Part shown: in pieces, positions 319 through 451 of the stretch
How the letters are laid out: each line of letters starts with the position of its first letter
How positions within the stretch are numbered: position 1 is the first letter of the stretch
NCBI RefSeq assembly: GCF_003334385.1
Contig: NZ_QOWN01000090.1
Direction: 5' to 3' (one strand)
Length of the DNA stretch: 3,964 nucleotides
From: Escherichia coli
GTDB taxonomy: Bacteria > Pseudomonadota > Gammaproteobacteria > Enterobacterales > Enterobacteriaceae
The notes under the pieces: generated by a model
Seen by the model: the letters and a program-made list of their open reading frames with translations, nothing else
Database searches by the model: none
What the model was told of the DNA's origin: nothing
Position numbers and translations under genes: made by a program

Positions 319-341
319 TAATACGACTCAGTATGGGGAGA
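319..341 (+). promoter_or_regulatory. T7-type phage RNA polymerase promoter-like sequence (predicted +1 at 336)
   Basis: TAATACGACTCAGTATGGGGAGA matches the T7 consensus TAATACGACTCACTATAGGGAGA at 21 of 23 positions. Mismatches are at -5 (G for C) and -1 (G for A). The -17 to -6 specificity region is intact. Confidence 0.55.
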
Positions 342-428
342 GGGCCTCTGACGAACCCACAGATAGTGTGGTCTCATGCCCTTAGTTGCCCATATCTATT
401 TACGAATCCACCTTAAAGTCAATAGAAA

Positions 429-451
429 CAATACGACTCGCTAATGGGAGA
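429..451 (+). promoter_or_regulatory. Second T7-type promoter-like sequence, more diverged (predicted +1 at 446)
   Basis: CAATACGACTCGCTAATGGGAGA matches the T7 consensus at 19 of 23 positions. The ATACGACTC core and the GGGAGA initiation region are conserved. Same orientation as the first, about 110 bp downstream. Confidence 0.45.

What the first reader, a model, noticed from the sequence alone, without database searches (positions are those of the whole stretch)
319..451. Two tandem T7-type phage RNA polymerase promoter-like sequences in a cassette with bacterial-style genes
Sites at 319..341 (21/23) and 429..451 (19/23) match the T7 class III promoter consensus, including the ATACGACTC specificity region and GGGAGA initiation sequence, and both point toward the genes. 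The divergence at -5 to -1 argues against cloning-vector contamination. If this is not a T7-like phage genome, the cassette would be transcribed only when a T7-like phage polymerase is present, suggesting an infection-triggered module such as a satellite or defence cassette.
Basis: partly seen in the sequence, partly recalled or inferred. Interest (0 to 1): 0.8.

Follow-up and report, generated by a model that had tools for sequence, protein, structure and literature searches.

The report
T7-phage promoters in a mobile mini-island
The two T7-type promoters are real and belong to a 4.8-kb mobile island in the E. coli chromosome that carries an anti-T7 defence gene and looks built to be switched on, and perhaps copied and packaged, by infecting T7-like phages.

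Summary
Observation confirmed. Sites 319-341 (21/23) and 429-451 (19/23) match the T7 promoter consensus and both point at the downstream genes. The window is E. coli chromosome, not phage or vector. It holds most of a 4.8-kb island integrated in tRNA-Gly(CCC): integrase, RAZR/PD-T7-4 (a known anti-T7 gene), the promoters, a 590-nt leader, two unknown genes, attR at 2688-2710.

Other E. coli strains carry perfect 23/23 T7 promoters at this position. Related islands in about 20 other enterobacterial species carry arrays that keep CACTATAGGGAGA. Where phages of the host are on record, the specificity half matches them exactly (K11 and KP32 types in Klebsiella, PP81 type in Pectobacterium).

The islands also hold a 20-nt copy of the T7/K11 concatemer junction inside the integrase gene, and a look-alike of the T7 left end after the last gene.

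Best reading: a cassette transcribed by the invading phage's RNA polymerase, in an element that is probably a satellite ("natural phagemid") of T7-like phages. No paper found describes this. Transcription, excision and packaging are all untested. The window's copy looks partly decayed: weaker promoters, and RAZR cut by IS421.

The parts
1..77 (.). End of an IS421 (IS4-like) element. The same end, inverted, lies at 3892-3964. It is not part of the island, but it cuts off the first 130 codons of RAZR in this genome.
   Evidence: Inverted repeat 3-87 / 3880-3964, 95% complementary. Homology to E. coli H7 starts at 75 and ends at 3892. An IS421-family transposase is annotated in hit H9.
75..314 (+). 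3' fragment (last 80 codons, stop TAG 312-314) of RAZR / PD-T7-4, a DUF4145/HEPN RNase anti-T7 defence gene. The fragment keeps the catalytic R...H stretch RIVGNQAVH.
   Evidence: The full gene in L001 matches PADLOC PD-T7-4 at E 2.9e-100 and Pfam DUF4145. Translations. Function from PMC13017515.
319..341 (+). T7-type phage RNA polymerase promoter P1 (21/23 to consensus; +1 at 336).
   Evidence: Sister strains carry 23/23 at the homologous position. The best phage context match is T7 phiOR.
429..451 (+). T7-type promoter P2 (19/23; +1 at 446). In sister strains it is a class II-like CACTAAAGGGAGA form.
   Evidence: T7's own class II promoters show the same kinds of deviation.
483..612 (+). Highly conserved, probably structured leader element. 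It has a closing stem AACTTATCG/CGATAAGT and an apical hairpin. No known family matches it.
   Evidence: Nearly invariant in six divergent E. coli islands. 76-96% identical in Klebsiella, Morganella, Rouxiella, Edaphovirga and isolate RIT691. Fold z-score -3.3, 0 of 200 shuffles as stable. Compensatory changes. No Rfam hit.
640..780 (+). AT-rich trough (19% GC at 651-750). Five of the leader's six CTTAAAG copies lie in it (643, 654, 663, 705; 547 just upstream), and the sixth is at 412. It resembles the promoter-proximal, origin-associated sequence after phiOL in T7 and K11.
   Evidence: T7 phiOL is followed by ACTTAAAGAGACTTAAAAG. K11 phiOL is followed by ACTTAAAGTATTACT, a 15/15 match in island L005.
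845..919 (+). Conserved block just upstream of gene A, with a 7-bp hairpin and the ribosome-binding site AAGGAG (910-915).
   Evidence: About 79-80% identical in 8 loci that carry unrelated gene A families. Fold is not significant (z -1.7).
925..1629 (+). Gene A, 234 aa: an Ant/Rha-like putative DNA-binding protein. This position in the island is a swappable slot filled by at least 5 unrelated families.
   Evidence: PHROG anti-repressor families. No Pfam, NCBIfam or PADLOC hit. 404 homologues, some named Rha family. Gene families. AlphaFold model pLDDT 66, no PDB match.
1930..2406 (+). Gene B, 158 aa: all-helical, function unknown, small family confined to Enterobacterales.
   Evidence: 26 homologues, no domain. 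No family in any library. Best AlphaFold model pLDDT 81.5, but the other four models scored 40-49; no PDB match.
2410..2451 (+). Look-alike of the T7 sequence that spans the left genome end. Window CTACAAAAATCTGAGCGTCTA|TCTAATAGT against T7 CCATAAAAATCTGAGTGACTA|TCTCACAGT; the boundary equivalent falls at window 2434.
   Evidence: 24/30 by eye. 27/42 here and 28/42 in sister islands, against a shuffle mean of 21.8 and maximum of 27. Always 275-296 nt before the attR end in 15 of 17 metagenome loci.
2688..2710 (+). attR core: a 23-nt copy of the 3' end of tRNA-Gly(CCC) that marks the right end of the island. The conserved arm lies at about 2550-2687.
   Evidence: Direct repeat with the tRNA end in 12 loci. 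Arm conserved at 70-90% across genera. Arms listed.

Best explanation
**What the sites are.** The two sites are working-type promoters for the RNA polymerase of T7-like phages. They are a conserved part of a 4.3-6.5 kb integrative mini-island inserted in the tRNA-Gly(CCC) gene.

**Layout.** All genes lie on one strand, in this order: attL, integrase, a defence-gene slot (here RAZR/PD-T7-4), a phage-promoter array, a long leader (structured element plus AT-rich CTTAAAG repeats), gene A, gene B, a left-end look-alike, attR.

**Proposed mechanism.** In an uninfected cell the cassette downstream of RAZR is silent. When a T7-like phage infects, its polymerase transcribes the leader and genes A and B. 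The phage shuts off the host polymerase, so this is a route to expression that stays open during infection.

The island family also carries the T7/K11 concatemer-junction sequence (inside the integrase gene) and a left-end look-alike (after the last gene). These two become neighbours, in phage order and orientation, only across attP after excision. I therefore think the island is most likely a satellite, a "natural phagemid": expressed, probably replicated from a promoter-plus-AT-rich origin, and packaged as concatemers by the phage it also defends against.

**Shown.** The sequence features, their conservation, the host-matched promoter specificity, and the att sites.

**Inferred.** Transcription by the phage polymerase, excision, replication, packaging, and what genes A and B do.

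**State of this copy.** It looks partly decayed. The promoters are 2 and 4 mismatches from consensus, RAZR is truncated by IS421, and the junction motif is altered in the closest complete relative.
For: **The promoters are real and unique to this locus.**
-. In the whole K. pneumoniae ATCC 13883 genome the 13-mer core occurs 3 times, all in the island.

**Same place in every island.**
- Across 24 related loci, 19 exact CACTATAGGGAGA cores were found. All are on the gene strand and all lie in the leader after gene 2. None lie elsewhere or on the other strand.
- Seventeen further metagenome loci repeat the pattern.

**Specificity half tracks the local phages.**
- The Klebsiella island matches K11/KP32 promoters exactly: 176 of 188 hit records are Klebsiella phages, with 10 sites per phage.
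- A second promoter type in the same island matches the KP32_194/Whistle group: 253 of 265 records are Klebsiella phages.
- The Pectobacterium island matches annotated PP81/PP47 promoters exactly.
- E. coli islands carry the T7 type.

**Mobile island with a defence gene.**
- att repeats; RAZR (PMC13017515); integrase.
- No sigma-70-like site was found on the + strand between RAZR and gene A.

**Packaging-type signals.**
- CTCTGTGTCCCTATCTGTTA is identical over 20/20 nt in T7 149-168, in K11 170-188 (annotated concatemeric junction) and in the integrase genes of L014, L015 and L016.
- It sits in a hypervariable linker of the integrase. The nucleotides, including CTA (a rare Leu codon in enterobacteria, established knowledge), are kept in 10 of 12 loci.
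- A BLAST search of that stretch hits 673 phage records; the listed hits are Klebsiella T7-like phages, several of them within about 200 nt of a genome end.
- Left-end look-alike.

**Precedent.** T7 replicates, packages and transduces plasmids that carry a T7 origin, a pac site and the terminal repeat (PMC13236587, citing Chung & Hinkle 1990).

**Ancestry.** The closest phage integrases belong to Studiervirinae phages (for example vB_PsyP_3MF5). There the gene lies next to the terminal repeat.
Against: - No experiment of any kind supports this.
- No excised form was seen. The attP junction pattern gave 0 hits in JGI metagenome contigs and in IMG/VR, while 17 integrated copies were found.
- IMG/VR holds the island only as provirus calls from isolate genomes.
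- No excisionase, replication protein or packaging protein is recognisable. Genes A and B have no informative homology or fold.
- RAZR aborts T7 infection on sensing the portal protein (PMC13017515). That would also abort packaging of the island by phages RAZR recognises.
- The left-end look-alike is only marginally above chance on its own.
- The junction motif lies in coding sequence and is changed in the window's nearest relative, TCCCAATCTGTA.
- The integrase and the junction motif lie outside the window.
Confidence: 0.6

Rival explanations
1. Pure defence cassette. The promoters only serve to express genes A and B (an unknown toxin or anti-phage effector) once the phage polymerase appears. 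This would be a second layer behind RAZR. The island would spread by other means and would not be replicated or packaged by the phage.
For: The adjacent gene is a proven anti-T7 abortive-infection system (PMC13017515). The gene 2 slot and the gene A slot are swappable, like defence hotspots. No excised form was found. No satellite-type genes were found.
Against: It does not explain the 20-nt concatemer-junction copy held at nucleotide level in a variable integrase linker. It does not explain the left-end look-alike, the long conserved non-coding leader with AT-rich origin-like sequence, or why every gene is on one strand. Genes A and B match no defence model.
Confidence: 0.25
2. Decaying remnant of an integrase-bearing T7-like temperate phage. 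The promoters, the junction motif and the end-like sequence would be relics of the phage's junction region with no present function.
For: The closest phage integrases are in Studiervirinae phages, next to the terminal repeat. The window copy shows decay: promoter mismatches, an IS421 insertion, and an altered junction motif in L001.
Against: The same compact architecture with intact reading frames and att sites recurs in more than 40 loci from about 15 genera. The promoter cores are perfect, while the specificity halves match the present-day phages of each host and are shuffled between closely related islands. No structural or replication gene remnants remain. That pattern indicates continuing selection, not drift.
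Confidence: 0.1
3. Cis-acting decoy. The promoters and junction copies would act only as DNA, soaking up phage polymerase or terminase or provoking aberrant cutting, without any need for the encoded proteins.
For: Phage cis-elements are present without recognisable trans-acting partners.
Against: Two to four promoters per chromosome cannot compete with the 17 promoters on each of hundreds of phage genome copies unless the island is amplified. That amplification is the satellite model. Genes A and B are conserved as open frames with good ribosome-binding sites.
Confidence: 0.05

Closest known systems
T7 promoters, and the T7 primary origin (tandem phi1.1A/phi1.1B plus an AT-rich region)
   Same: The 23-nt consensus, the orientation, and the natural variants (-5 G as in phi1.3, -17 C as in phi1.1A). 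Two tandem promoters are followed by AT-rich DNA.
   Different: They lie in a bacterial chromosome, not a phage. The spacing is 110 nt against 75 nt in T7. The AT-rich region is about 200-300 nt downstream. Origin activity is untested.
Laboratory T7 phagemids (Chung & Hinkle 1990; used in PMC13236587)
   Same: A small DNA that carries T7 promoter/origin sequences and concatemer-junction sequences. Such plasmids are replicated, packaged as concatemers and transduced by T7.
   Different: The island is natural and integrates by its own integrase. Its junction and left-end look-alikes are about 0.9 kb apart and are joined only across attP. There is no true terminal repeat.
PICMIs, minimalist satellites of virulent phages in Vibrionaceae (PMC10803314)
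   Same: Very small (about 5-6 kb) integrase-bearing islands with no capsid genes. The paper reports packaging as concatemers, dependence on virulent phages and protection of the host.
   Different: Different integration site and core genes. PICMIs encode their own excision and replication proteins. No use of helper-polymerase promoters is reported for them.
P4-like satellites and PICIs that carry defence hotspots (PMC9122126)
   Same: A mobile element parasitic on a phage with a variable slot for defence genes.
   Different: Those are induced by helper proteins acting on a repressor, and they carry replication and packaging genes. Here the trigger would be the helper's RNA polymerase acting directly on promoters.
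RAZR / PD-T7-4 (PMC13017515; PMC9519451)
   Same: The gene directly upstream is RAZR. Its link to an integrase gene was already noted.
   Different: Neither paper mentions the promoters or the downstream cassette. RAZR is expressed from its own promoter, not from these.
Integrase-bearing Studiervirinae phages (Pseudomonas phage vB_PsyP_3MF5, Warsawvirus)
   Same: Homologous integrase (32% identity over 98% of its length). The gene lies between the phiOR-like promoter and the terminal repeat.
   Different: That is a full 41.6-kb phage with its integrase on the opposite strand. The island keeps only junction-type sequences and has no phage genes.

Membership tests
T7-group phage RNA polymerase promoter | 23-nt match from -17 to +6, with the conserved core CACTATAGGGAGA | tested here: met
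   21/23 and 19/23 in the window, and 23/23 in sister strains. The window cores each carry 2-3 changes.
T7-group phage RNA polymerase promoter | Specificity region (-12 to -8) of a known polymerase | tested here: met
   ACGACT is the T7 type in both sites. Related islands carry the K11, KP32 and PP81 types, matching phages of their hosts.
T7-group phage RNA polymerase promoter | Transcription initiated by the phage polymerase | not testable with these tools
   Needs in vitro transcription or an infection experiment.
Phage satellite (PICI / PICMI / P4-like in the broad sense) | Integrase and att sites bounding a small element | tested here: met
   23-nt att repeats and a 535-aa tyrosine integrase. 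attR is in the window; the integrase lies outside it.
Phage satellite (PICI / PICMI / P4-like in the broad sense) | Helper-specific induction signal | tested here: inconclusive
   Helper-type promoters are present and host-matched. Induction itself was not observed.
Phage satellite (PICI / PICMI / P4-like in the broad sense) | Packaging signal of the helper | tested here: inconclusive
   A 20/20 concatemer-junction copy is present in relatives. The left-end look-alike in the window scores 27/42, against a shuffle maximum of 27. The junction is altered in L001.
Phage satellite (PICI / PICMI / P4-like in the broad sense) | Own excision and replication functions | tested here: not met
   No Xis/AlpA, primase or Rep domain in any island gene. 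Gene A may be a DNA-binding protein.
Phage satellite (PICI / PICMI / P4-like in the broad sense) | Excised or encapsidated copies seen | tested here: not met
   The attP junction gave 0 hits, against 17 integrated copies. IMG/VR entries are provirus calls. This is weak negative evidence: the samples are not known to be infected.
RAZR / PD-T7-4 defence system (the upstream gene) | Full-length zinc-finger plus DUF4145/HEPN protein with the catalytic R and H | tested here: not met
   The gene is complete in strain H7 (E 2.9e-100). In the window only residues 131-209 remain, downstream of an IS421 end.
T7-type replication origin | Phage promoter(s) followed by an AT-rich region with primase sites | tested here: inconclusive
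   Two promoters, then a 19% GC trough. Five (G/T)GGTC sites on the + strand of the 607-nt leader, where my estimate of the chance number is about 1.2. Function is untested.

The most novel reading that the evidence does not exclude
A previously unrecognised class of satellites of virulent T7-like phages in Enterobacterales. These would be 4-6.5 kb "natural phagemids" that encode only an integrase, a defence gene and a few small proteins. They would borrow everything else from the helper through cis-elements:
- arrays of promoters tuned to the polymerases of several local phages;
- an origin-like leader;
- a split mimic of the terminal-repeat boundaries that is assembled across attP only after excision.
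Probability: 0.4. Interest if true: 0.9.

Novelty: new variant of a known kind. Interest (0 to 1): 0.82.

Why it matters
How "integrase-only" defence islands move between bacteria is an open question. Hochhauser et al. 2023 (PMC10121019) suggested they may be uncharacterised satellites. This family offers a concrete, testable answer for one such island: the cis-signals of T7-like phages.

It would also be a natural case of a host element using the invader's own RNA polymerase as the trigger. That trigger keeps working after the phage has shut off host transcription. The promoter arrays appear to track the local phage population.

On the practical side, T7-like phages (K11 and KP32 types in Klebsiella, T7 types in E. 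coli) are common therapy candidates. Islands that respond to them, and carry RAZR, bear on phage resistance and on gene transfer by these phages.

The promoter arrays are also a ready-made catalogue of orthogonal phage-polymerase promoters.

Tried and rejected
- **Vector contamination or a T7-like phage genome:** rejected by the native chromosomal context and by conservation.
- **Chance:** rejected.
- **General enrichment of the promoter core in enterobacterial genomes:** not seen. There were 11 sites in 401 genomes against about 40 for the reversed control. The signal is therefore specific to these islands.
- **Longer homology of the leader to phage DNA:** blastn found only the promoters.
- **Rfam:** no family matched anywhere in the window.
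- **Small coding ORFs in the leader:** rejected because of frame-breaking indels between strains.
- **Class II terminator ATCTGTT inside the window:** none.
- **Intrinsic terminators or sigma-70 promoters on the + strand of the island:** nothing convincing.
- **Gene A and gene B function:** no informative hit in Pfam, PADLOC or NCBIfam. PHROGs gave only anti-repressor-like matches for gene A. Two AlphaFold models gave no PDB fold match.
- **Gene B related to DUF6971, which holds the same position in larger islands:** no.
- **The 330-400 aa partner gene in larger islands:** no family and no solved relative.
- **Folds of the pre-gene-A block, the P1 leader and the tail:** not significant.
- **Excised-circle junction:** not found.
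- **Literature:** seven literature searches found no report of phage-polymerase promoters in chromosomal islands, or of satellites of T7-like phages.

Full report
**1. The observation**

The window holds TAATACGACTCAGTATGGGGAGA at 319-341 and CAATACGACTCGCTAATGGGAGA at 429-451, both on the + strand. Against the T7 consensus TAATACGACTCACTATAGGGAGA they score 21/23 and 19/23.

The first is the only site in the window within 3 mismatches. None of 200 dinucleotide-preserving shuffles gave one.

T7's own promoters show the same kinds of deviation. phi1.3 has G at -5, phi1.1A begins with CAATACGACTC, and only 10 of the 17 promoters T7 is known to have (established knowledge) lie within 3 mismatches of the consensus.

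**2. Where the window comes from**

Window 75-3892 is 100% identical to the chromosome of E. coli strain H7. The two contig ends (1-77 and 3892-3964) are the same IS421 end in inverted orientation.

In H7 the gene order is: actS, tRNA-Gly(CCC), a 535-aa tyrosine integrase, a 209-aa DUF4145 protein, a 600-nt gap that holds the promoters, two small genes, then ygeQ and the ETT2 type III secretion genes. No phage structural genes or vector sequences are present. The only match in the phage collection is the IS end.

The last 23 nt of the tRNA (TTCGATTCCCTTCGCCCGCTCCA) recur at window 2688-2710. This bounds a 4.8-kb island, and ygeQ lies outside it.

The DUF4145 protein is PD-T7-4 (PADLOC E 2.9e-100). 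It has since been renamed RAZR: a HEPN RNase that aborts infection by T3, T7 and other phages, and that is activated by the T7 portal protein (PMC13017515). Its discoverers noted that it often overlaps an integrase gene (PMC9519451). Neither paper mentions promoters downstream of it.

In the window the RAZR stop codon is at 312-314, and the first promoter starts 4 nt later. Only the last 80 codons of RAZR are present here; the rest is cut off by IS421.

**3. Comparative evidence that the promoters matter**

*Within E. coli.* Five other E. coli strains with variants of the island carry T7-type promoters at the same position. Four of them have a perfect 23/23 consensus site, and four have a second site about 110 nt away. 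In two whole chromosomes, sites within 3 mismatches occur nowhere else. The leader sequence occurs in 91 of 5,426 complete E. coli genomes, always on the chromosome, with a median of one copy per genome. A metagenome contig carries the window's exact variant, including both promoter changes.

*In other genera.* Integrase homologues were found in 21 species-representative genomes (including E. coli and Shigella). They include Klebsiella, Citrobacter, Pectobacterium, Proteus, Morganella, Buttiauxella, Kluyvera, Rouxiella and others, and are mostly integrated at the same tRNA. In these loci and the E. coli ones, 19 exact copies of the core CACTATAGGGAGA occur. All are on the gene strand and all lie in the gap after the second gene. 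None lie elsewhere or on the opposite strand.

*The specificity half varies with the host.*
- The K. pneumoniae island has AATTAGGGCACACTATAGGGAGA. This matches promoters of phages K11, KP32 and K5 exactly: 176 of 188 matching records are Klebsiella phages, with 10 sites per phage.
- The same island has AATTAGGTAGCACTATAGGGAGA, exact in a second group of Klebsiella phages: 253 of 265 records, with 12 sites each. It also carries a T7-type site.
- The Pectobacterium island has AATTAACTATCACTATTGGGAGA, exact in the annotated promoters of phages PP81, PP47 and PPWS4.
- The Proteus type equals the ICP3/N4 type.
- The Citrobacter type is within one base of Dev2, SFPH2 and EP1.
- The Buttiauxella type has no phage match on record.

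*Further support.* Seventeen more metagenome copies show the same grammar, with the promoter types shuffled between otherwise similar islands. In the whole K. pneumoniae ATCC 13883 genome the core 13-mer occurs three times, all in the island. Across 401 Enterobacteriaceae genomes the core is rarer than its reversed control, 11 against about 40 sites. The signal therefore belongs to these islands and not to the genomes in general.

A conserved core joined to a host-matched, shuffled specificity half is what continuing selection for recognition by phage polymerases would produce.

**4. Anatomy of the cassette**

All island genes lie on one strand.

*Leader.* The leader is 590 nt from the +1 of P1.
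- It contains a block (about 483-612) that is nearly invariant in six divergent E. coli islands. The block is 76-96% identical in five other genera.
- The block folds better than every one of 200 shuffles, with z = -3.3.
- It has a closing stem with a TA-to-CG compensation, and an apical hairpin whose sequence differs in the Klebsiella group while its pairs are kept.
- It matches no Rfam family.

*AT-rich region.* A 19% GC trough follows. The leader holds six CTTAAAG copies. The same motif directly follows phiOL in T7 and in K11, where a 15-nt stretch is identical to one island. T7 origins are known to consist of a T7 promoter followed by AT-rich DNA, and the primary origin has two tandem promoters (established knowledge; positions). 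The leader also holds five (G/T)GGTC primase-type sites on the + strand, where my estimate of the chance number is about 1.2. That is suggestive only.

*Gene A (925-1629).* It has a strong AAGGAG ribosome-binding site and is Ant/Rha-like. It occupies a slot filled by at least five unrelated families in other islands.

*Gene B (1930-2406).* It belongs to a family of about 26 proteins with no recognisable domain or fold.

*Larger islands.* These replace gene B with a DUF6971 protein plus a 330-400 aa protein, both of unknown function.

**5. Phage-end look-alikes**

A search for the T7 polymerase pause signal ATCTGTT found it about 500 nt into the integrase gene of several islands. The match extends to 20 of 20 nt, CTCTGTGTCCCTATCTGTTA. 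This is identical to T7 149-168 and to K11 170-188, which is the end of the terminal repeat and is annotated "concatemeric junction" in K11.

BLAST of this stretch hits 673 phage records. The listed hits are Klebsiella T7-like phages, several of them within about 200 nt of a genome end.

The site lies in a hypervariable, indel-rich linker of the integrase. Even so, the nucleotides TCC CTA TCT GT, including CTA (a rare Leu codon in enterobacteria, established knowledge), are kept in 10 of 12 loci. The window's nearest complete relative has CAA in place of CTA.

A second look-alike lies inside the window at 2410-2451, just after gene B. It reads CTACAAAAATCTGAGCGTCTA|TCTAATAGT, against T7 CCATAAAAATCTGAGTGACTA|TCTCACAGT, where the bar marks the T7 left genome end. 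It scores 27-28 of 42, against a shuffle mean of 21.8 and a maximum of 27. It sits 275-296 nt before the attR end in 15 of 17 metagenome loci.

Both look-alikes have the same orientation as the promoters. In the integrated island the junction copy lies upstream of the promoters. After excision the order becomes: promoters, genes, left-end look-alike, attP, junction copy. That is the phage order. This last point is my inference.

**6. Ancestry**

The closest phage integrases (32% identity over 98% of the length, E 1e-61) belong to Studiervirinae phages such as Pseudomonas phage vB_PsyP_3MF5. There the gene lies between the terminase gene with its downstream phage promoter and the right terminal repeat. 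The island probably descends from the junction region of an integrase-bearing T7-like phage.

**7. Interpretation**

The best-supported reading is as follows. The two sites are functional-type phage-polymerase promoters of a mobile mini-island. They make the downstream leader and genes respond to infection by T7-like phages.

I consider it more likely than not that the island is also replicated and packaged by such phages. Laboratory plasmids carrying a T7 origin and the concatemer junction behave this way (PMC13236587, citing Chung & Hinkle 1990).

*Points against.*
- No excised junction was found in the public contigs searched.
- No excision or replication proteins are recognisable.
- RAZR should abort the very phages it senses.
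- The left-end look-alike is statistically marginal.

*Rivals.* The alternatives are a defence-only cassette, a relic of a temperate T7-like phage, and a DNA decoy. They are set out with their tests in the Rival explanations section.

**8. Novelty**

RAZR and its link to an integrase are known. Small satellites of virulent phages are known (PICMIs, PMC10803314). Hochhauser et al. suggested that integrase-only defence islands might be unrecognised satellites (PMC10121019).

Seven literature searches found no report of phage-polymerase promoter arrays in chromosomal islands, of concatemer-junction copies in such islands, or of satellites of T7-like phages. The library is limited to open-access papers and bioRxiv, so prior description elsewhere cannot be excluded.

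**9. The window's own copy**

It appears to be a weakened member of the family. P1 and P2 deviate from consensus, though within the range T7 itself uses. RAZR is truncated by IS421. The junction motif carries a change in the closest complete relative.

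Noticed in passing
window 1-77 and 3892-3964: Both contig ends are the same IS421 (IS4-like) end in inverted orientation. One copy interrupts RAZR after codon 130; the other interrupts the ygeQ region. The only match in the phage collection is this IS end, in a 5,129-bp record named Escherichia phage ECO111 5-P.
   Followed up: partly
window 2866-3903: ygeQ (glycoside hydrolase family 15) is a pseudogene here, with an in-frame TGA at 3658-3660. It is intact (about 536 aa) in some strains. 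It lies outside the island, next to the decayed ETT2 type III secretion cluster.
   Followed up: partly
L001 12869-12885 and window 2645-2660: TTCTTAAAG just inside attL and its reverse complement CTTTAAGAA just inside attR form inverted repeats beside the att core in nearly all islands. The same CTTAAAG word is the repeat in the leader. The leader repeats might therefore be protein-binding sites (for the integrase or for gene A) and not phage mimicry.
   Followed up: no
L014 8250/8277; L019 8256/8283 and 8826/8853; L026 8729/8756: In Klebsiella, Citrobacter and Enterobacter islands, promoters of different specificity sit in back-to-back pairs with a fixed 27-nt start-to-start spacing.
   Followed up: no
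L014 10134-11822, L019 10206-11761 and 8 other loci: Larger islands carry a conserved pair of genes, DUF6971 (about 160 aa) plus a 330-400 aa protein, where E. coli has gene B. Neither has a known function, defence model or solved relative. Two islands (L017, L028) end with a serine resolvase/invertase gene.
   Followed up: partly
401 Enterobacteriaceae genomes: The T7 promoter core CACTATAGGGAGA is about four times rarer than its reversed control (11 against about 40 sites). This may reflect avoidance of phage-promoter-like words in host genomes, or plain composition bias.
   Followed up: no
window 1630-1929: The gap between genes A and B is 300 nt here but 124 nt in sister islands. It contains a palindromic stretch, GATCAATTTCAAATTATCGATCGAGATAAACGATCG. 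No function is assigned.
   Followed up: no
L024, L025 (E. coli ECMA0423, Shigella flexneri): A more distant island type (integrase 74% identical) has a 2.4-kb leader and only one weak promoter-like site. It may use a promoter class that my core search missed, or it may be decayed.
   Followed up: no
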